Positions 8,744-47,066 of a DNA stretch of 55,690 nt are shown one piece after another. Under the pieces are notes generated by a model, which saw only the letters and a program-made list of their open reading frames with translations, was not told the DNA's origin and did no database searches. Position 1 is the first letter of the stretch. Each line of letters begins with the position of its first letter. Source of the DNA: an uncultured Candidatus Saccharibacteria bacterium (lineage in GTDB: Bacteria > Patescibacteriota > Saccharimonadia > Saccharimonadales > CAZNVG01); assembly GCA_964576475.1 (NCBI GenBank), contig CAZNVG010000005.1:1-55690 (forward strand). The letters run 5' to 3'. The position numbers were made by a program, and so were the translations under genes.

Positions 8744-8799
8744 TTCACTTTTCATACCTGACTTGTTAAGGTTCGTTCTGCTCCTAGAGAAAACTCTAG

Positions 8800-8959
8800 A
8801 AAAACAAAACCTCCGAGATCGCTTAGTGGAGCGGACCGGAGGTATGGACAATAAACATATTGCATCCTCGGTTTCGCTACTGACTCCCCGATTGCCCAAG
8901 CGACCAAATACAGGCAAAAGGATCATAGTCCGGATGGTTCTCTCACAATAAGATAACCA
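8800..8959 (-). ncRNA. Putative structured RNA / riboswitch-like leader, copy 1
   Basis: Promoter (8966-8994), then the 77-nt conserved multi-stem element (8939-8863), then hairpin ACCTCCG/CGGAGGT (8809-8843) with a U-tract on the minus strand. Confidence 0.55.
8863..8939. repeat. 77-bp exact direct repeat, copy 1
   Basis: CATCCTCGGTTTCGCTACTGACTCCCCGATTGCCCAAGCGACCAAATACAGGCAAAAGGATCATAGTCCGGATGGTT is identical at 8863-8939 and 9229-9305. Confidence 0.97.
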
Positions 8960-9107: not shown

Positions 9108-9170
9108 ACAGAGGTAGATAGCACTAGCGGTAGCGGGTTGAATGGACCGTACAACCCTAGCCGTAGAGTC

Positions 9171-9316
9171 AAAAAAACCTCTGATCTGGCCACTTATGGA
9201 GCGCAAAACAGAGGTAGACATAGAGATCCATCCTCGGTTTCGCTACTGACTCCCCGATTGCCCAAGCGACCAAATACAGGCAAAAGGATCATAGTCCGGA
9301 TGGTTTGTAATAAACC
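9171..9316 (-). ncRNA. Putative structured RNA / riboswitch-like leader, copy 2
   Basis: Promoter (9323-9351), then the same 77-nt element (9305-9229), then hairpin ACCTCTG/CAGAGGT (9177-9215) with a U-tract on the minus strand. The stem covaries with copy 1. Confidence 0.55.
9229..9305. repeat. 77-bp exact direct repeat, copy 2
   Basis: Identical to 8863-8939. Confidence 0.97.
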
Positions 9317-41641: not shown

Positions 41642-42685
41642 ATGAAAGCATTTCTTGTTTTACTTCTTGCACTCACGCTTATCGCAGCACTTACTATAGC
41701 CGCGGCCTTACTGCGAGTATTACGTCGGCAAAGTCTCTTTGAGATGCAACTACGATCTAAAGAGAAAGACGACCCTGCTGCACATTTATTACCATTGTTT
41801 TTAAAAAGAAATCAGACTGCATGGCTAGCACGCGCAGTCGTTGTTGTTTCTGAATTGAGCCTCGTTATAGTACTTGCCTGGAGATGGTGGGCGCCCTTTG
41901 CCGTCGTTGCTACGTCTGCAGGACTTTTGGTCGGTAGCTATATCATAAATTACTTTTTGCCATATGAGCGAGTTGAGTTATTTGCCGCGAAGTCAGCAGC
42001 CTATGTCAACTCGGTGCTTGTGTTTCTAACTCCAGTAACTGCCGTGCTGAGAAGCTGGTTTGTTCGCAAGCCTATTGATGTATCTTTGCCGTTTGTGAGT
42101 AAAGAAGAGTTGATAGAGTTGGTTCGCGCGAGCGAGTCCTCCCACGCGAGTCTTAGTGGCGATGAGCGCAGCATCGCTGTGCATGCACTGAGTTTTAGCG
42201 ACAAAATTATTGCTGATGTTATGGTTCCTCGTCGAGTGGTTAAGGGTGTTGATGTTAAGGCGCAGGTGAACCTGAAACTTATGAGTGAATTGCACGAAAG
42301 TGGGTTTTCACGCTTCCCCGTGTACGAGGAAAATCTCGATCATATAGTTGGCACCCTGTATCTGAAGAATCTGGTTGGTGCGGCAAAAAGTGACACACGT
42401 CGCGTCAAAGATGTATTTGATAAATCGGTTTACTTTGTCAACGAGAGCCAAACACTTAACCACGCGCTTAATGCCTTCCTACGCACCAAGCACCATCTGT
42501 TTATTGTAGTAAATGAGTTTCAAGAAATGACAGGCGTGATTACAATCGAGGATGTTATCGAGCAGCTTATTGGACGCAAAATAGTTGATGAGTTTGATAA
42601 GTACGATGATCTACGTGAAGTCGCAGCTCTCGCTGCAAAAAAAGACAAGAAGTCACATACTGATCCGACAGAAGTAAAAGATTAA
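41642..42685 (+). CDS. CNNM/CBS-pair (TlyC/CorC-like) membrane protein
   Basis: N-terminal TMs, ADVMVPR, SGFSRFPVYE..DHIVG, HLFIVVNEF..MTGVITIEDVIEQLIG. Confidence 0.88.
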   Translation: MKAFLVLLLALTLIAALTIAAALLRVLRRQSLFEMQLRSKEKDDPAAHLLPLFLKRNQTAWLARAVVVVSELSLVIVLAWRWWAPFAVVATSAGLLVGSYIINYFLPYERVELFAAKSAAYVNSVLVFLTPVTAVLRSWFVRKPIDVSLPFVSKEELIELVRASESSHASLSGDERSIAVHALSFSDKIIADVMVPRRVVKGVDVKAQVNLKLMSELHESGFSRFPVYEENLDHIVGTLYLKNLVGAAKSDTRRVKDVFDKSVYFVNESQTLNHALNAFLRTKHHLFIVVNEFQEMTGVITIEDVIEQLIGRKIVDEFDKYDDLREVAALAAKKDKKSHTDPTEVKD

Positions 42686-43581
42686 TCCTCGAGATACTGA
42701 CCAGCCTCAATGAGTCCGAGCGCATCTTCGATTTGCACTAAAATGCTTTTACTTAACGCTCGGTCGCCGATCGCACGTTCGGCCTCAATCTGAATCTCCT
42801 GCTCTATGAGATTTCCAGACATACCAAGAACTTCCCCGGTCTCCTCGTCACGGTCAACTTCTTCAGGCCGGCAATATCGCGCCATACATTCAATGATGCT
42901 TGATGGCCTAATATAGCTCTCTAGATCTCCGGCTTCTGTTCGCTCCAGCTGGTACCGAGTCTCGTCGTAGCTTCTACCAATTCCCAGAGGAGGGTTCATT
43001 GAATCGGTCAGCTTGTACATGGGGTGTCGTGCACCTTGAAACCTTCGTGAGCTAATTTCGACACGACTATCATCACTCAGCCTCCATATCTTTGAGCGAT
43101 CTTCGACACTATGCGCGTCTTCCATGAGCATAGAAAAGAACGATAACACCCGAGAAACACGAGCAATGCCGATATCATGCAGGACGTCTTGCTGTTGTGC
43201 GCAATGAAAAGATGTTTCTAACAACTCATGCATTGGGGTCTCGACTTCAACTCCATCCAGCAACTCACCCAGTCCTATCGGTTGATTGATGTGTCCTCGA
43301 TATATGCCCTTAGTTAGATCCTGAATGCCTGCGAACATAACTGGAGGCGCGTATGTATCGGATTCAGCTTGTTGCCTATGGACATACAGTCTTTGTTGGC
43401 CCGCCATCGCAGAATCAAACAAAGCGTCTAGATGGAGTTCGAATTCATTTGGCAGCTCTATCTTTCTGAAAGCTTGAATTCTCAGGCGCGTAGCCTCGTT
43501 TTGCATAAGTTTAGCTTCTGCTTCTGTGATAAGCGCTTCCGCCATCGACTCAAGTTCGCCAAAACCTTCATGTGATTCCAT
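42682..43581 (-). CDS. Hypothetical acidic protein
   Basis: 299-aa ORF. TATAAT lies 9 nt upstream of the ATG on the minus strand. Confidence 0.65.
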   Translation of the reverse strand: MESHEGFGELESMAEALITEAEAKLMQNEATRLRIQAFRKIELPNEFELHLDALFDSAMAGQQRLYVHRQQAESDTYAPPVMFAGIQDLTKGIYRGHINQPIGLGELLDGVEVETPMHELLETSFHCAQQQDVLHDIGIARVSRVLSFFSMLMEDAHSVEDRSKIWRLSDDSRVEISSRRFQGARHPMYKLTDSMNPPLGIGRSYDETRYQLERTEAGDLESYIRPSSIIECMARYCRPEEVDRDEETGEVLGMSGNLIEQEIQIEAERAIGDRALSKSILVQIEDALGLIEAGQYLED

Positions 43582-43747
43582 AATTTACTTATTATACAAT
43601 AGTTTAGCGTTCGTGACCCCAGATATTTTCCGAACAGTACGATGTGGCAGACGGTCTAAACAGCGTCGTCTCAACGGGCAATCCTTGACCCTGAGGCATA
43701 TACTATATGTAGAGGGTTTTTCTAAAAAAAAGAAGGACAAATAAGCG

Positions 43748-44746
43748 ATGATTGAGCTTTGTATTGAACCTGGCCGTACTGTTACGTGGGAAGAATTTAA
43801 ACTAGAGAGCACTGCACGAGATGTCGGATCTATCGGACTCGATGGATACGTGAAAGGTCAGCCACGCTTTGAGCGCGTCATAAATGAGGCGGGGCACTGT
43901 ATTGGTGTGCAGAACTTTAATCACCACGAGGAAGTGAATCGGCTTGCTACGCTGGCAACTTGTCAGCAAGTAGACATAGCCTTGAAGTCTGGATTTGTTG
44001 ACGGATTTCGTGAGGAACATGGACGGTTTATGGCGAACGTCTATGTTAATGATTCCGATCAGGATGTATGCGCTGCCGTTTGGCTATTGCGCAATAAACA
44101 TCTCGTGCACGACCAGGGCAGCCCGGTGATAAATAGATTTGTTACCGTTGCCGGACTCATGGACATGACCGCAGGAAGTTATCCGTTTGATCAAGACACA
44201 CCTTTCTTGGAAACACTAAACTGGATCAATCAACCATACAATCAAGCACGACTGAATGGCGAAGCGACGTCTAACGATCCAGAAGTGCATCGTATGATTA
44301 TCGATGCGGTAGGCAGTAGGATTGATAAATATATCGTAGGTCGTGATGAAAAGGTGCCGCTTGATACACGCTATACACCTCTCGAAAAAGGAAAGGGGTG
44401 GATGATGATCAGGGAAGTAGGTCCGCAAGGTAAACTAGGCGCGATTAATGACGGAGCTGATGCATTAATTCAGGTACGCGATAACGACCCTGAGCATATG
44501 CACGTAAGTTTCTGGCGCAAGAGCGAATGGATTCCCATAGATTTCCACCACATTATGGAACGATTGAATGAGGCAGAGCTTGCGCGACTTAAAGAGCTGA
44601 AACTTATTGATCACGATGTTGATTCGCTGGATGCGACCAGAGCATGGGGTGGGGGCAATACGACTTTCGGCTCTCCGCGAGTTATAGGCACGCGACTTGA
44701 TCTCTCAGAAATTGCCGAAATTGCCGATGAATTCTCAAACATCTGA
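43748..44746 (+). CDS. Divergent DHH-superfamily-like phosphoesterase (tentative)
   Basis: NFNHH, NDSDQD and DMTAG resemble DHH metal-binding motifs. C-terminal WGGGNTTFGSPR resembles the DHHA1 GGG motif. Confidence 0.5.
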   Translation: MIELCIEPGRTVTWEEFKLESTARDVGSIGLDGYVKGQPRFERVINEAGHCIGVQNFNHHEEVNRLATLATCQQVDIALKSGFVDGFREEHGRFMANVYVNDSDQDVCAAVWLLRNKHLVHDQGSPVINRFVTVAGLMDMTAGSYPFDQDTPFLETLNWINQPYNQARLNGEATSNDPEVHRMIIDAVGSRIDKYIVGRDEKVPLDTRYTPLEKGKGWMMIREVGPQGKLGAINDGADALIQVRDNDPEHMHVSFWRKSEWIPIDFHHIMERLNEAELARLKELKLIDHDVDSLDATRAWGGGNTTFGSPRVIGTRLDLSEIAEIADEFSNI

Positions 44747-44782
44747 ATATACGACATCATCATCTGAGAAATGCGCTCAATC

Positions 44783-44791
44783 TGTTATAAT
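44783..44791 (+). promoter_or_regulatory. Extended -10 promoter of the aspS leader
   Basis: TGtTATAAT, 7 nt upstream of the leader ORF ATG (44799). Confidence 0.65.
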
Positions 44792-44798
44792 CGAGATT

Positions 44799-44873
44799 AT
44801 GATACGTTTTGGCAGCAATAATATGAATCCATGGGTCGATGCAAGCGCGACTCAGGCGCACGCTATTGCATAA
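44799..44873 (+). CDS. Putative leaderless 24-aa leader peptide (Asn-rich) of aspS
   Basis: MIRFGSNNMNPWVDASATQAHAIA*, with three AAT codons in four positions, overlapping hairpin 44831-44882. Confidence 0.55.
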   Translation: MIRFGSNNMNPWVDASATQAHAIA

Positions 44874-44882
44874 ACGACCCAT
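44831..44882 (+). promoter_or_regulatory. Leader hairpin (putative attenuator)
   Basis: ATGGGTCG/CGACCCAT outer stem, ATGCAA/TTGCAT inner stem. Confidence 0.55.
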
Positions 44883-44922
44883 ACGAAGCCAGATCTATTA
44901 GCTAAACAATTAGGAAAAAACA

Positions 44923-46233
44923 ATGAGAATTCTCAGTAAAGATGTTTCGTCCAAGCCTAACGAGACAGTAACGATTCAGGGATGGCTACATAAGAAACGC
45001 TTACTAGGCGGCTTAAACTTCATCAACATTCGAGATCGAAGCGGCCTTACGCAGGTGCTTGTCGAGAAGGGTGAAGAAGTAGAGAAGCTTCGTGGTATGC
45101 AAATAGGGACTGTACTTTCAGTTACTGGCACTGTTTTTGCAGATGAGAGAGCACCGGGTGGCGCAGAATTACACGATCCTGAAATCACTGTGCTTGTGCC
45201 AGTAGTTGACGAGCCGCCAATTGAAATTGATAAGCCACTCAATCACAAATCTGAAAACCTAGATACCCTCTTTGATAATCGCGTACTGGGACTAAGAAAC
45301 CTGCAGGAAAAGGCGATATTTGAAATCCAGTCTACTATTTGCCGCGCAATGCGTGAGTATTTCTATGCAAACGACTTTACTGAAATGCATACGCCAAAAC
45401 TATTAGCCGAGCCAACTGAAGGTGGAGCAGAGGTATTCCAGTTAGACTACTTCGGAAAGACCGCTACGTTGGCGCAAAGTCCGCAGTTCTATAAACAGAT
45501 GATGGTTGGCGTGTTTGAGCGTGCCTTTGAAATAGCTCCGGTGTATCGAGCGGAGCCGAGTGCGACAACCCGACATATGACTGAATATACGTCTGTTGAC
45601 GGAGAGATGGGCTTTATTACACTGGACGATTTGCAGAATTTCCTGTCGGGACTACTAAATGCTGCCTGTGATGCAGTTTGGGAGAAACACGAAACAGAAC
45701 TAAAGCGTTGGAATGCGACAAAGCCTGTTATTCCAAAAGAAATACCAGTCATGAGTATGGCGGAAATCCATGAGCGATACAGTAAAGCCAACGCAACTAG
45801 CACAGTTGGAGAGAAAGACCTCCGCCCTGACGAGGAGCGATGGATTTGTGAATACGCGAAGAAAAATCTCGGCTCAGAAGCGATCTTTGTGAGTGAGTGG
45901 CCTGCAAGCGAGATGAAGTTTTACCATAAAGCCAACGAACAAAATCCCGAAATCGCTGATAGGGTTGATCTACTGTTTCGTGGTGTTGAAATCACCACAG
46001 GATCAATGCGAGAAAACCGTTACGAAGTTGTCGTCGAGCAACTTAGAAAACTTGCCGGTGGCGATCCAGATGATCCCGGATTCACACCTCTGCTTACAGC
46101 TATGAAGTATGGCATGCCGCCTCATGGAGGATTTGGCTTGGGGCTCGAACGAGTTACGCAAAAGCTACTTGGATTCGGCAACATTAAAGAAGCAACATTA
46201 TTCCCTCGTGACCTGAATCGACTTGCACCCTAA
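44923..46233 (+). CDS. aspS: Aspartate--tRNA ligase, archaeal/non-discriminating type
   Basis: OB fold (GWLHKKR..FINIRDRSG), LAQSPQFYKQ, FEIAPVYRAE..RH..EY, GMPPHGGFGLGLER. 436 aa with no bacterial GAD insertion. Confidence 0.93.
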   Translation: MRILSKDVSSKPNETVTIQGWLHKKRLLGGLNFINIRDRSGLTQVLVEKGEEVEKLRGMQIGTVLSVTGTVFADERAPGGAELHDPEITVLVPVVDEPPIEIDKPLNHKSENLDTLFDNRVLGLRNLQEKAIFEIQSTICRAMREYFYANDFTEMHTPKLLAEPTEGGAEVFQLDYFGKTATLAQSPQFYKQMMVGVFERAFEIAPVYRAEPSATTRHMTEYTSVDGEMGFITLDDLQNFLSGLLNAACDAVWEKHETELKRWNATKPVIPKEIPVMSMAEIHERYSKANATSTVGEKDLRPDEERWICEYAKKNLGSEAIFVSEWPASEMKFYHKANEQNPEIADRVDLLFRGVEITTGSMRENRYEVVVEQLRKLAGGDPDDPGFTPLLTAMKYGMPPHGGFGLGLERVTQKLLGFGNIKEATLFPRDLNRLAP

Positions 46234-46712
46234 CAGCGTGCAGAGCGAATCCTGCTTCTTTCCATGGATGGCCATTGCTCGTCGTCGACGTGAAGAATTG
46301 TATGAACCATAGCGTACCGATATTCAGTATGAGCATTGTCGTTGGCGCAGATTTCTTCTAGACCAAGCAGATTTAATGCTCGAGATCCAATAGACTGGCA
46401 GTCAATATTGAAGCTGTCTCGATGGTAACGGACTTCTTCGCCGTCAGCTGGAACAGTGATCCTGTGTGATCGACTCTCCAAAAAGGCCTCAGTAGTGAAC
46501 AGAATCGCTAACCCATTCTCAAGTAATTCGTACTTATAGCTTGATCGTCTCGTCAAGTGATCGGGTCTAGTTCTATCGCAGTACAGCATTGTGTCCATGG
46601 TGTGCGTGGTGGGTTCGTTTGCAATTAAAGGAGCTATGTTCCCTTGAAGCTGCTGTAGAAAGACCCGAGCCGTTTCGACGTTTCGCTCAAAGACGCTTTG
46701 TTGTGATTCCAT
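46230..46712 (-). CDS. Hypothetical protein
   Basis: Open frame convergent on aspS with a 4-nt stop overlap. ATG 46712 preferred. Confidence 0.55.
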   Translation of the reverse strand: MESQQSVFERNVETARVFLQQLQGNIAPLIANEPTTHTMDTMLYCDRTRPDHLTRRSSYKYELLENGLAILFTTEAFLESRSHRITVPADGEEVRYHRDSFNIDCQSIGSRALNLLGLEEICANDNAHTEYRYAMVHTILHVDDEQWPSMERSRIRSARC

Positions 46713-46802
46713 ACGATTGTTATAGCACGACACTATTTGCTAAACATGACCATAATTCCTTTTGCCTATAGGGCGTATACTTAAAGTAGGAAGGAGATCA
46801 AT

Positions 46803-47066
46803 ATGTCAAAACGTGAATTTACTCCCGAGGAAGCAATGCTCATAGGAGAGCGAGTTGGTATTGATTTTACTAAGATTGACCTAGAGCAGTTCCGACTTGG
46901 GCTCGCAGTAGAAATGGAGCATGGTTCGCATGACCCAGAGACCAATGTTACTGACAATAGCGTCAGTTTAACCGCAAAGATTGCATGGGCTCATTTAAAA
47001 GAAATTCCCGATTACTATACACGACTGTCAAAAATGGAAGCCGAGGGAGAAGCAGCCTCAGCGTAA
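46803..47066 (+). CDS. DUF5661-like small protein
   Basis: EQFRLGLAVEMEHG...TAKIAWAHLKEIPDYYTRL. AGGAG SD. Confidence 0.8.
   Translation: MSKREFTPEEAMLIGERVGIDFTKIDLEQFRLGLAVEMEHGSHDPETNVTDNSVSLTAKIAWAHLKEIPDYYTRLSKMEAEGEAASA

What the first reader, a model, noticed from the sequence alone, without database searches (positions are those of the whole stretch)
44783..44922. Leaderless Asn-codon leader peptide with overlapping hairpin upstream of non-discriminating aspS: candidate ribosome-mediated attenuator
Seen: TGtTATAAT ends 7 nt before ATG 44799, so the ORF would start at about +1. It encodes MIRFGSNNMNPWVD..., with AAT at codons 7, 8 and 10 and GAT at 14. A long hairpin (44831-44882) begins just after the Asn codons and contains the stop. 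Established: ND-AspRS charges tRNA-Asn for GatCAB transamidation. Leaderless uORF attenuators are known in mycobacteria, while synthetases in Firmicutes use T-boxes. Inference: a ribosome stalled on the Asn codons would cover the 5' arm of the hairpin and switch aspS expression. There is no U-tract, so control may be Rho-dependent or translational.
Basis: partly seen in the sequence, partly recalled or inferred. Interest (0 to 1): 0.7.

Follow-up and report, generated by a model that had tools for sequence, protein, structure and literature searches.

The report
Asparagine-codon leader switch before aspS
A tiny reading frame rich in asparagine codons, starting at the very 5' end of the RNA and followed by a conserved hairpin, precedes the aspartyl-tRNA synthetase gene in many Saccharibacteria; it most likely lets a ribosome report a shortage of charged tRNA, but it has neither a terminator nor a ribosome-binding-site mask, so how it acts is open.

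Summary
It is also conserved. A homologous leader lies directly upstream of aspS in 17 further Saccharibacteria loci, 16 of them distinct, and nowhere else in 422 kb searched.

All 17 distinct copies, the window's included, share these features:
- a -10 box 4-12 nt before an ATG that has no Shine-Dalgarno (SD) sequence;
- a 15-27 codon frame with 0 stops in 158 codons, against 17 and 22 in the other frames;
- clustered Asn and some Asp codons, always in frame;
- the rare AAU codon preferred (37:6, against 50:152 in the aspS genes);
- the last Asn codon 7 nt (8 in one copy) before a covarying hairpin (P2) that holds the stop codon.

I also found a second covarying pairing. The translated 5' segment pairs with the 3' strand of P2 or with the tail behind it (P1).

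Relatives without the leader place the aspS ATG itself where the uORF ATG sits, so a leaderless start is credible.

The output step is unresolved. There is no U-tract, although this genome's riboswitches use U-tract terminators. There is no conserved SD masking. My best guess is that a stalled ribosome keeps the leader from collapsing into a compact fold next to the aspS ribosome-binding site.

I rate it a new variant of leader-peptide control. No expression data could be obtained.

The parts
44764..44791 (+). Promoter: weak -35 (CTGAGA), 16-nt spacer, TG-extended consensus -10 (TGTTATAAT, 44783-44791)
   Evidence: 10 of 12 positions plus TG, the best site in 43000-47000. A -10-like hexamer lies 4-12 nt before the uORF ATG in all 17 distinct leaders.
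44799..44873 (+). Leaderless leader ORF: 24 codons plus TAA, MIRFGSNNMNPWVDASATQAHAIA*
   Evidence: In all 17 distinct leaders the first ATG after the -10 is in frame with the anchor Asn codon. Frame 0 has 0 stops in 158 codons, against 17 and 22 in the other frames. None has an SD.
44817..44828 (+). Sensor codons AAT AAT ATG AAT (Asn at codons 7, 8 and 10). The last Asn codon, 44826-44828, lies 7 nt before the conserved GGGUCG stem.
   Evidence: 43 Asn in 158 leader codons, against 4.7% in the window's ORFs; 25 Asn and 9 Asp in the 68 codons before the anchor (p = 1.5e-21 and 0.011); AAT:AAC is 37:6, against 50:152 in the aspS coding sequences; the spacing is 7 nt in 16 of 17 leaders.
44800..44813 (+). 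5' strand of outer helix P1 (uORF codons 1-5)
   Evidence: -10.6 kcal/mol in the window. Cognate against non-cognate permutation gives p = 0.001 for 5' segment with tail and p = 2e-5 for 5' segment with P2 3' strand plus tail.
44831..44882 (+). Hairpin P2: outer stem 44831-44838/44875-44882, inner stem 44839-44844/44866-44871, 3' bulge AAA, apical stem-loop carrying the conserved GGCG
   Evidence: z = -4.76; 83% of cells paired, 9 of 11 pairs with compensatory changes, 0 of 500 shuffles reach the observed value, and slid controls pair at 32-44%.
44871..44873 (+). uORF stop codon TAA, inside the 3' bulge of P2
   Evidence: the stop lies inside P2 in all 17 distinct leaders, and exactly 7 nt before the end of P2 in 6 of them.
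44887..44900 (+). Tail: conserved AGCC motif (44887-44890) and 3' strand of P1 (44888-44900). It ends 11 nt before the SD.
44901..44922 (+). A-rich, G-poor spacer holding the aspS Shine-Dalgarno AGGA (44912-44915), 7 nt before the ATG
   Evidence: tail plus spacer: C 112, G 61, A 205, leaving out L027. (16 of 17 leader-bearing aspS genes have an SD).
44923..46233 (+). aspS: archaeal-type, non-discriminating aspartyl-tRNA synthetase, 436 aa
   Evidence: PF00152, PF01336. (NF003483 aspartate--tRNA(Asn) ligase, 467 bits, cut-off 353).

Best explanation
This is an old, Saccharibacteria-wide leader of the non-discriminating aspS gene, and a ribosome reads it.

Transcription starts at or within a few bases of ATG 44799. 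A 70S ribosome translates a short leaderless frame whose only conserved coding feature is a cluster of Asn codons, mostly the rare AAU, often with an Asp codon beside them. Asn and Asp are the two amino acids whose tRNAs this synthetase charges.

When Asn-tRNA(Asn) or Asp-tRNA(Asp) is short, the ribosome waits on these codons. In that position it sits on the 5' segment and abuts hairpin P2. The 5' segment then cannot pair with the P2 3' strand or the tail. The G-poor tail and spacer in front of the aspS SD stay single-stranded, and aspS expression goes up.

When charged tRNA is plentiful, the ribosome runs to the stop inside P2 and leaves. The leader then collapses into a compact P1+P2 fold, about -30 kcal/mol. 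That fold buries the uORF start and ends 14-37 nt before the aspS ATG, inside the zone a 30S subunit needs to dock. Expression goes down.

Shown here: the conserved anatomy, the coding signature, the covariation of P2 and of the second pairing, the exclusive link with aspS, and the absence of a terminator and of SD masking.

Inferred: the leaderless start, stalling at the Asn codons, and the sign of regulation.

Guess, about 0.3 on its own: that the output works through RBS-adjacent structure (a standby site), rather than through RNA decay, Rho or a bound protein.
For: - Conservation and specificity. A homologous leader lies upstream of aspS in 18 loci, 17 distinct. A covariance model found only these copies in 422 kb that included the whole window.
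- Translation signature. The first ATG after the -10 is in frame with the anchor Asn codon in 17 of 17. The ATG-to-Asn distance is only ever 24, 27, 30, 33 or 36 nt. Frame 0 has 0 stops in 158 codons, against 17/141 and 22/141. Asn makes up 27% of leader codons against 4.7% background, and Asp is about 2.4-fold enriched next to it. AAU:AAC is 37:6, against 50:152 in the aspS genes of the same loci, p = 6e-14. The peptide is not otherwise conserved.
- Leaderless start. 17 of 17 uORFs have a -10 and none an SD; 16 of 17 leader-bearing aspS genes have an SD; in 19 of 30 leader-free loci the aspS ATG sits 4-12 nt after a -10. Sister loci L005 and L002 share the promoter.
- RNA structure. P2 covaries. 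The 5' segment pairs with the P2 3' strand plus tail at -13.7 kcal/mol for cognate pairs against -10.6 for non-cognate, p = 2e-5.
- Geometry. The last Asn codon lies 7 nt before P2 in 16 of 17, although every other segment varies in length.
- Regulatory logic. A sister Patescibacteria lineage controls its aspS with a T-box-like leader.
Against: - There are no expression data. The TSS, translation of the uORF and any regulation are all unmeasured.
- The output step has no direct support. SD and AUG accessibility does not change in thermodynamic models with a ribosome placed at the first Asn codon, the last Asn codon or the stop. The leader does not pair with its own RBS better than with another locus's RBS.
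- The apical GGCG of P2 and the lower-stem sequence are conserved whether or not they are translated. That points to recognition by some factor, or to a tertiary contact, which the model does not explain.
- The leader has been lost at least 8 times, so it is dispensable.
- The AAU preference could partly reflect AT-rich non-coding composition.
- P1 in the strict sense (5' segment with tail) is present in only 11 of 17 leaders.
Confidence: 0.62

Rival explanations
1. The sensor is the same, but the output is transcriptional. Either Rho terminates on the naked C-containing, G-poor tail and spacer, or P2 acts as a factor-assisted terminator without a U-tract. The stalled ribosome decides which happens.
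For: Tail plus spacer has a C:G ratio of about 1.8 and is largely unstructured. No SD masking was found. In L027, and possibly L095, the leader sits upstream of a second promoter-like site, so only a transcriptional effect could reach aspS there.
Against: The eight bases after P2 hold at most 3 U. The same genome ends its c-di-GMP-II riboswitches with classical hairpin plus U-tract terminators. The free region is short (32-54 nt) and A-rich rather than C-rich. In the simplest model a stalled ribosome exposes more naked RNA, not less, which gives the wrong sign.
Confidence: 0.15
2. The output is RNA fate or a bound protein. The P2 or P1+P2 fold would be a site for a nuclease such as RNase III. 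Alternatively it would bind a repressor, for instance AspRS itself in the way ThrRS binds its own operator. Ribosome occupancy would then protect or destroy that site.
For: P2 keeps sequence as well as pairing: GGGUCGGCAGC...GCUGCGUARUCGACCC, an apical GGCG in almost all copies irrespective of reading frame or of whether it is translated, and a 3' bulge. This is more conservation than a simple steric hairpin needs. The sign of regulation would be right.
Against: No loop resembles an Asp or Asn anticodon loop (GUC or GUU in a 7-nt loop). The helices are interrupted and short for RNase III. Nothing tested here speaks to protein binding.
Confidence: 0.13
3. This is a structured cis-RNA, riboswitch-like or binding tRNA as a T-box does, that is not translated. 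The AAU triplets would be part of an RNA motif such as a specifier.
For: It has a closing helix, an internal loop with conserved AAU triplets, a hairpin with a conserved loop, and a possible 3-bp contact between loop and tail: GGC with GCC in 11 copies, and GGU with ACC in L024 and L018. A T-box-like leader controls aspS in a sister lineage.
Against: The frame signature is hard to explain without translation: the ATG is always in frame, length changes come only in multiples of 3, there are 0 stops against 17 and 22, and AAU/AAC exchanges are synonymous. The ATG sits at the leaderless position. No Rfam family, T-box included, matches at E up to 10. The loop NGGC is not consistently UGGC, as pairing with a tRNA 3' end would require.
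Confidence: 0.07
4. There is no regulation. The element would be a constitutive 5' stabiliser, or a small-protein gene, that happens to sit before aspS.
For: The leader was lost at least 8 times without loss of aspS. The output step cannot be derived from the sequence.
Against: Enrichment of exactly the two cognate amino acids, use of the rare codon, and fixed spacing to the hairpin are all unexpected for a stabiliser. The peptide sequence is not conserved where the stem sequence changes: RVGS against RADYC, RAGK, RTAETA and WVDAS.
Confidence: 0.03

Closest known systems
E. coli pheM-pheST leader-peptide attenuator (own knowledge)
   Same: An aminoacyl-tRNA synthetase gene is preceded by a short leader ORF enriched in codons for its own amino acid. 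A ribosome reads the supply of charged tRNA.
   Different: pheM has an SD-led leader ORF and a classical terminator/antiterminator pair with a U-tract. Here the leader ORF is leaderless and there is no terminator. The codons cover both tRNA substrates (Asn and Asp) of a non-discriminating enzyme.
Mycobacterial polycysteine leaderless short ORFs, e.g. Ms5788A (bioRxiv 10.1101/834739)
   Same: A leaderless sORF is the first cistron, cognate codons act as sensor, regulation does not use an intrinsic terminator, and base pairing in the leader is required.
   Different: In Ms5788A the Cys codons pair with the SD of the downstream gene. Here the leader does not pair with its own SD better than with a foreign one; only the L011/L019/L086 clade shows AAUCUCC:GGAGAU. 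The target here is a synthetase, not a biosynthetic operon.
Classical trpL/hisL/thrL/leuL transcription attenuators (own knowledge; Rfam leader families)
   Same: A short ORF with a run of sensor codons just upstream of RNA helices. The translated region is complementary to a downstream strand (region 1 logic).
   Different: There is no 3:4 terminator with a U-tract, and the helices are largely nested (P1 around P2) rather than a chain of exclusive hairpins. No Rfam leader family matched.
T-box leaders (RF00230)
   Same: They do the same job, raising a synthetase when its tRNA is uncharged. A T-box-like leader sits upstream of the orthologous aspS in L034 (52 bits, E = 1.6e-10, below the gathering score of 93). 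T-box-like sequences also sit before Chloroflexi aspS genes.
   Different: A T-box reads tRNA directly, without translation. The window leader has no T-box sequence or Stem I.
Asn/Asp leader-peptide attenuators of aspS noted by other agents of this scan in Anaerolineae and Deinococcota, and leaderless attenuators in Saccharibacteria (unchecked AI notes)
   Same: Asn/Asp-rich mini-ORF in front of the archaeal-type aspS. Leaderless leader ORFs in Saccharibacteria.
   Different: Those notes describe classical terminator/antiterminator switches, and this leader has none. I did not examine their sequences, and a sequence look-up found no look-alike of this leader.
ermC/cat translational attenuation and the tnaC/speFL/mgtL Rho-dependent leaders (own knowledge)
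   Same: A stalled ribosome on a leader ORF changes the fate of the downstream cistron without an intrinsic terminator.
   Different: Those systems either unmask an SD or mask a rut site under or next to the stalled ribosome. Neither arrangement is evident here.

Membership tests
Leader-peptide (ribosome-mediated) regulators, broad sense | [quoted passage not shown] | tested here: met
   43 Asn in 158 leader codons against 4.7% background. Asp is enriched next to them (9 of 68, p = 0.011). All 17 leaders have at least 2 Asn/Asp in the last 5 codons.
Leader-peptide (ribosome-mediated) regulators, broad sense | The ORF is really translated | tested here: inconclusive
   The comparative coding signature is strong, but there are no ribosome or proteome data.
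Leader-peptide (ribosome-mediated) regulators, broad sense | The translated segment is complementary to a downstream strand, so ribosome position selects the fold | tested here: met
   5' segment with P2 3' strand plus tail: cognate -13.7 against non-cognate -10.6 kcal/mol, p = 2e-5. Components.
Classical transcription attenuator (trpL type) | Intrinsic terminator: G+C-rich hairpin followed by a U-tract before the gene | tested here: not met
   No U-tract follows P2 or P1 in any of the 17 leaders. The scan found no terminator between 44747 and 44923. The same genome does use U-tract terminators.
Classical transcription attenuator (trpL type) | Antiterminator mutually exclusive with the terminator | tested here: not met
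   With no terminator there is nothing to antagonise. An alternative pairing of the 5' segment with the P2 3' strand exists in about half the copies.
Translational attenuator (ermC, cat, mycobacterial Ms5788A type) | SD or start codon of the downstream gene is sequestered by the leader and freed by the stalled ribosome | tested here: not met
   Mean unpaired probability of the SD is 0.61 free, 0.61 and 0.57 stalled, and 0.61 with the ribosome at the stop. Leader-SD duplexes are -7.9 cognate against -7.6 non-cognate. Exceptions are L011, L019, L086 and L010. Pseudoknots were not modelled.
Leaderless mRNA | Start codon at or within a few nt of the TSS, with no SD | tested here: inconclusive
   A -10 lies 4-12 nt before the ATG in 17 of 17 and none has an SD. 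Orthologous leaderless aspS genes use the same promoter. The TSS was not mapped.
T-box riboswitch (RF00230) | Stem I with specifier loop, plus the T-box sequence and antiterminator bulge | tested here: not met
   cmscan at E up to 10 over 44000-45600 gave no T-box hit. The same search finds one in L034.
Rho-dependent leader-peptide attenuators (tnaC, speFL, mgtL) | C-rich, G-poor rut site whose access depends on the ribosome, and Rho present in the organism | not testable with these tools
   The C:G ratio is about 1.8, but the region is short and A-rich. A literature search found nothing on Rho in the Candidate Phyla Radiation.
Synthetase operator that mimics tRNA (thrS type) | Hairpin loop mimicking the cognate anticodon loop next to the RBS | tested here: not met
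   P2 loops carry GGCG, not a GUC or GUU anticodon-like 7-nt loop. There are no tRNA genes in the window to compare stems with.

The most novel reading that the evidence does not exclude
The leader may be a new kind of ribosome-actuated switch. P2 may form a small pseudoknot with the AGCC tail through its conserved GGCG loop. It is placed exactly at the ribosomal helicase (+11) when the last hungry AAU codon is in the A site. There it would act as a roadblock that amplifies stalling. The output would be set not by a terminator or an SD mask but by whether a 70S parked at the 5' end of a leaderless mRNA lets the leader collapse next to the aspS ribosome-binding site. Alternatively the parked ribosome would expose the leader to a factor that recognises P2. 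If so, this would be a minimal charged-tRNA sensor suited to reduced genomes that depend on the transamidation route to Asn-tRNA.
Probability: 0.25. Interest if true: 0.8.

Novelty: new variant of a known kind. Interest (0 to 1): 0.62.

Why it matters
Gene regulation in Saccharibacteria and other ultra-small Candidate Phyla Radiation (CPR) bacteria is almost unknown. These cells cannot make amino acids and, by inference, obtain Asn-tRNA only through ND-AspRS plus GatCAB.

A conserved sensor of Asn/Asp-tRNA charging in front of aspS would show three things:
- that these cells monitor tRNA charging through translation itself;
- that leaderless translation is used for regulation outside Actinobacteria;
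- that synthetase control by leader peptides is wider than the single textbook case, pheST.

The leader has neither a terminator nor an SD mask, so working out its output could reveal a mechanism not yet described. The family also offers a natural experiment. It has been lost at least 8 times, in some lineages leaving a leaderless aspS (in L002 on the promoter that drives the uORF in its sister L005), and a sister lineage uses a T-box-like leader instead.

Tried and rejected
- Rfam at E up to 10 around the site found nothing relevant. The whole window at gathering threshold gave only the two known c-di-GMP-II riboswitches.
- Intrinsic terminator: rejected. No U-tract follows P2, while the genome's riboswitch terminators have one.
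- SD or AUG masking: rejected as a general feature.
- Tail, or P2 3' strand, pairing with the RBS or early aspS: no signal.
- Programmed frameshifting at AAU AAU before a hairpin: rejected. Both shifted frames hit stops at once in the window (UAA UAA, and AUA AUA UGA), and the site is not slippery (reading).
- Repeated or mobile element: rejected. There is one copy per locus and none elsewhere in 422 kb.
- Remnant of the upstream gene: rejected. The window's upstream gene has no homologue in any relative's locus.
- tRNA mimicry: no anticodon-like loop, and GCCA in the tail is not consistent.
- MAFFT plus RNAalifold on the raw leaders gave no structure because the alignment was poor. A hand-set structure and a covariance-model realignment were needed.
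- Other cognate-codon leaderless uORFs in the window: none convincing. Two Asn-containing mini-ORFs lie near a cation ATPase and a Na/H exchanger.
- Asn/Asp mini-ORFs before the Chloroflexi aspS loci I had fetched: none. Most of the ten whose upstream sequence I read carry T-box-like leaders instead.
- Literature: no paper on an Asn-codon leader of aspS, on leaderless regulation in Saccharibacteria, or on Rho in CPR.
Full report
**1. The observation**

- TGTTATAAT lies at 44783-44791.
- Seven bases later, ATG 44799 opens MIRFGSNNMNPWVDASATQAHAIA*, ending at 44873. AAT is at codons 7, 8 and 10, and GAT at codon 14.
- The inverted repeat ATGGGTCG/CGACCCAT (44831-44838 and 44875-44882) is perfect. 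It encloses a second arm pair, ATGCAAGCGCG/CGCTATTGCAT.
- The stop TAA sits in the 3' bulge of the hairpin.
- The hairpin alone folds at -23.7 kcal/mol with z = -4.76, and none of 200 shuffles does as well.
- The promoter match, 10 of 12 positions plus the TG extension, is the best in a 4-kb scan. No terminator-like site lies between the upstream gene and aspS.
- The gene at 44923-46233 is a 436-aa class II synthetase. It scores 467 bits on the NCBIfam equivalog for aspartate--tRNA(Asn) ligase, above the cut-off of 353.
- No Rfam family matches the leader, even at E = 10.

**2. Relatives**

I scanned one genome per species and the metagenome collection with the AspRS protein. This gave about 50 Saccharibacteria-type aspS loci.

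Reading their upstream regions showed the same leader in 17 further loci: L005, L010, L011, L014, L015, L016, L018, L019, L020, L021, L024, L027, L082, L086, L088, L095 and L100. L021 nearly duplicates L020, so counts below use 17 distinct leaders including the window.

A covariance model built from these found only these copies. Each lies directly 5' of aspS on the aspS strand. The search covered 422 kb, including the whole 55.7-kb window. The element is therefore specific to aspS and is not a dispersed repeat.

**3. Evidence that the short frame is read by ribosomes**

- In all 17 distinct leaders the first ATG downstream of the -10 box is in frame with the Asn codon that precedes the hairpin. 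The distance between them is only ever 24, 27, 30, 33 or 36 nt, so every length change has been a multiple of three.
- Between the ATG and that codon, frame 0 has 0 stops in 158 codons. The other two frames have 17 and 22 in 141.
- Frame 0 holds 43 Asn codons, against 2 and 10 in the other frames. Background Asn is 4.7% in the window's ORFs.
- In the four codons before the anchor there are 25 Asn and 9 Asp in 68 codons (p = 1.5e-21 and 0.011). Every leader has at least two Asn/Asp codons in its last five.
- The leaders use AAU 37 times and AAC 6 times. The aspS genes of the same loci use AAU 50 times and AAC 152 times, p = 6e-14. AAU is the wobble-read codon, as expected for a sensor. AT-rich non-coding composition may contribute to this bias.
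- Apart from these codons the peptides are unrelated. The recurring R-V-G-S is simply the 5' arm of the hairpin. Where the arm changes, the peptide changes with it: RADYC, RAGK, RTAETA, WVDAS.

**4. Evidence for a leaderless start**

- Every uORF ATG lies 4-12 nt after a -10-like hexamer, mostly TG-extended, and none has an SD.
- In the same loci, 16 of 17 aspS genes have an SD.
- Of 30 relatives without the leader, 19 place the aspS ATG itself 4-12 nt after a -10, with no SD.
- The sister pair L005 (leader) and L002 (no leader) have nearly identical promoter sequence. It lies in the 3' end of the upstream CBS-domain gene. At the same distance from it, L005 has the uORF ATG and L002 has the aspS ATG.

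So this promoter type drives leaderless translation in the clade, and the uORF occupies the leaderless position.

**5. RNA structure**

Hairpin P2 is present in all copies. It is 39-49 nt long and folds at -11 to -26 kcal/mol.

On the model-based alignment, 83% of cells pair. Nine of 11 pairs show compensatory changes. No shuffle out of 500 reaches the observed values, and sliding the partner strand drops pairing to 32-44%.

Three features go beyond simple pairing:
- The lower stem sequence GGGUCGGCAGC...GCUGCGUARUCGACCC is kept in most copies.
- There is a 3' bulge. In six copies it carries the stop codon exactly 7 nt before the end of the stem.
- The apex carries GGCG (or GGUG) in nearly every copy. 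This holds whatever the reading frame, and whether or not the frame has already ended.

About 6-9 nt after P2 comes a conserved AGCC (or AACC).

The translated 5' segment (codons 1-8) is complementary to what lies 3' of the P2 apex. In 11 copies it pairs with the tail, forming an outer helix P1:
- window: UUUGGC/GCCAGA plus UGAUA/UAUUA;
- L011: UGCAGACGGUU/AGCCGUUUGCA;
- L024: GAUCUG/CAGAUC;
- L014, L086, L088 and L100 each have a different sequence.

In the others it pairs with the 3' strand of P2 itself.

I tested each 5' segment against its own and against foreign partners. The cognate mean is -13.7 kcal/mol and the non-cognate mean -10.6, permutation p = 2e-5. Controls (5' segment with P2 5' strand; P2 strands with tail) show nothing.

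The last Asn codon lies 7 nt before P2 in 16 of 17 copies, although every other segment varies in length. With that codon in the A site, the stem starts at +11 from the P site. That is where the ribosome's helicase meets a duplex (own knowledge). A waiting ribosome would therefore sit on the 5' segment and abut P2, or open only its first pairs.

**6. What the output is not**

*Not an intrinsic terminator.* The eight bases after P2 contain at most three U in any copy. This genome's two c-di-GMP-II riboswitches are followed by textbook hairpin plus U-tract terminators.

*Not a general SD mask.* The mean unpaired probability of the SD is 0.61 in the free leader. It is 0.61 and 0.57 with a ribosome fixed at the last or first Asn codon, and 0.61 with a ribosome at the stop (a harsher constraint gives the same answer). 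Leaders do not pair with their own RBS better than with foreign ones. Only one clade (L011, L019, L086) has AAUCUCC complementary to GGAGAU, and L010 pairs its 5' segment with the aspS start. Pseudoknots were not modelled.

*Not frameshifting.* Both shifted frames stop at once in the window.

*Rho.* The tail and spacer are G-poor (C 112, G 61, A 205), but short and A-rich. A stalled ribosome would expose more RNA, not less, which gives the wrong sign. Whether the organism has Rho could not be checked.

**7. Most likely working**

The sensor half is well supported: a leaderless ribosome waits at hungry Asn or Asp codons.

What differs downstream between a waiting ribosome and one that has finished is whether the 5' segment is free to pair. 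If it is free, the tail is drawn into a compact P1+P2 fold of about -30 kcal/mol. The 3' edge of that fold lies 14-37 nt before the aspS ATG, inside the region a 30S subunit contacts. The fold also buries the uORF start.

I therefore take the folded leader as the low state, and the ribosome-held open leader, with a long single-stranded landing region before the SD, as the high state. This sign matches the T-box-like leader that controls the orthologous aspS in a sister Patescibacteria lineage. T-box-like sequences also precede most of the Chloroflexi aspS genes I read.

The output step is a guess, about 0.3. The sequence conservation in P2 points equally to a nuclease or a bound protein.

**8. 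Evolution**

On an AspRS tree of 48 sequences the leader is scattered across both deepest clades. It needs about 10 gains or losses, and at least 8 are forced by well-supported branches. The copies are clearly homologous, so the simplest reading is one old origin and many losses. Most losses left a leaderless aspS (19 of 30 loci). In L002 the aspS ATG sits on the promoter that drives the uORF in its sister L005.

In the window the conserved CBS-gene/aspS neighbourhood is interrupted by two unannotated genes. The leader has stayed with aspS.

**9. Comparison with known systems and novelty**

It works like a leader-peptide regulator.
- The closest in target is pheM-pheST of E. coli.
- The closest in form are the mycobacterial leaderless polycysteine sORFs, which act translationally by pairing the sensor codons with the SD.

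It fails the defining tests of a trp-type attenuator (no terminator), of an erm/Ms5788A-type translational attenuator (no conserved SD pairing), and of a T-box.

I found no paper describing an Asn-codon leader of aspS or leaderless regulation in Saccharibacteria. Notes from other agents of this scan report Asn/Asp leader attenuators with classical terminators before aspS in Anaerolineae and Deinococcota, and leaderless attenuators in Saccharibacteria. I treat those as leads only, and none matches this sequence.

My verdict is a real, conserved element: a new variant of a known kind, with an unresolved and possibly new output step.

Noticed in passing
L034:2763-2915; similar sequence upstream of aspS in L091 and L097: A sister Patescibacteria lineage has a T-box-like leader with a much shortened Stem I in front of its orthologous aspS. 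It scores 52 bits, E = 1.6e-10, below Rfam's gathering score of 93. Its specifier codon was not worked out.
   Followed up: partly
L038, L040, L043, L051, L053, L056, L061, L072 (200 nt upstream of aspS): Chloroflexi and Thermomicrobiales archaeal-type aspS genes carry GGTGGCACCACG-type T-box sequences followed by hairpin plus U-tract terminators. The same gene is therefore controlled by different leader types in different phyla.
   Followed up: no
L001-L003, L006-L009, L023, L026, L029, L030, L084, L089, L093, L096 and others (aspS start): In 19 of 30 leader-free relatives aspS itself is leaderless. Its ATG lies 4-12 nt after a -10 that is TG-extended in 12 of them and, in several, embedded in the last codons of the upstream CBS-domain gene (e.g. 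gtggTAGAATag). This suggests leaderless mRNAs are common in this clade.
   Followed up: partly
window 42682-43581 (-) and 43748-44746 (+): Two genes with no Pfam or NCBIfam match are inserted between the CBS-domain gene (41642-42685) and the aspS leader. The CBS-domain gene is the orthologue of the relatives' upstream gene, at 25-48% identity over full-length matches. The 332-aa gene has no homologue in any fetched locus.
   Followed up: partly
L027:2862-2980: A near-perfect hairpin of about 100 nt (CCCGCTGCTTGTCCAAGGTCCGACCTTGG...) and a second promoter-like site (TGATACACT, then 8 nt, then ATG) lie between the leader and aspS. In this lineage the leader seems uncoupled from aspS. L095 has a similar TGATACACT site.
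   Followed up: no
L014 (contig DATLJN010000029.1): The contig is labelled Magnetospirillaceae, but it carries a Saccharibacteria-type aspS (67% identity) with the Saccharibacteria leader, and it nests inside Saccharibacteria on the AspRS tree. It is probably mis-binned.
   Followed up: no
P2 apex and tail of all leaders; window 44855-44858 (GGCG) and 44887-44890 (AGCC): Loop GGC goes with tail GCC in 11 copies. Loop GGU goes with tail ACC in L024 and L018, which lie in different AspRS clades, and possibly in L088. L020 mismatches, and L095 and L100 lack the tail motif. This could be a 3-bp pseudoknot or an alternative partner for the tail. It is too short to judge.
   Followed up: partly
L087:1370-1500: The sister of the L016/L018/L020 clade keeps the promoter, a 7-codon ORF (MEFSANS*) and a 130-nt SD-led 5' UTR. 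The covariance model does not detect it. It may be a decayed leader.
   Followed up: no
window 8790-8840 and 9160-9210 (minus strand): The two c-di-GMP-II riboswitches are each followed, on the minus strand, by a classical hairpin plus U-tract terminator (CCTCCGG...CTCGGAGGTTTTGTTTTT and CCTCTG...CAGAGGTTTTTTTG). I used these as the yardstick for what terminators look like in this genome.
   Followed up: partly
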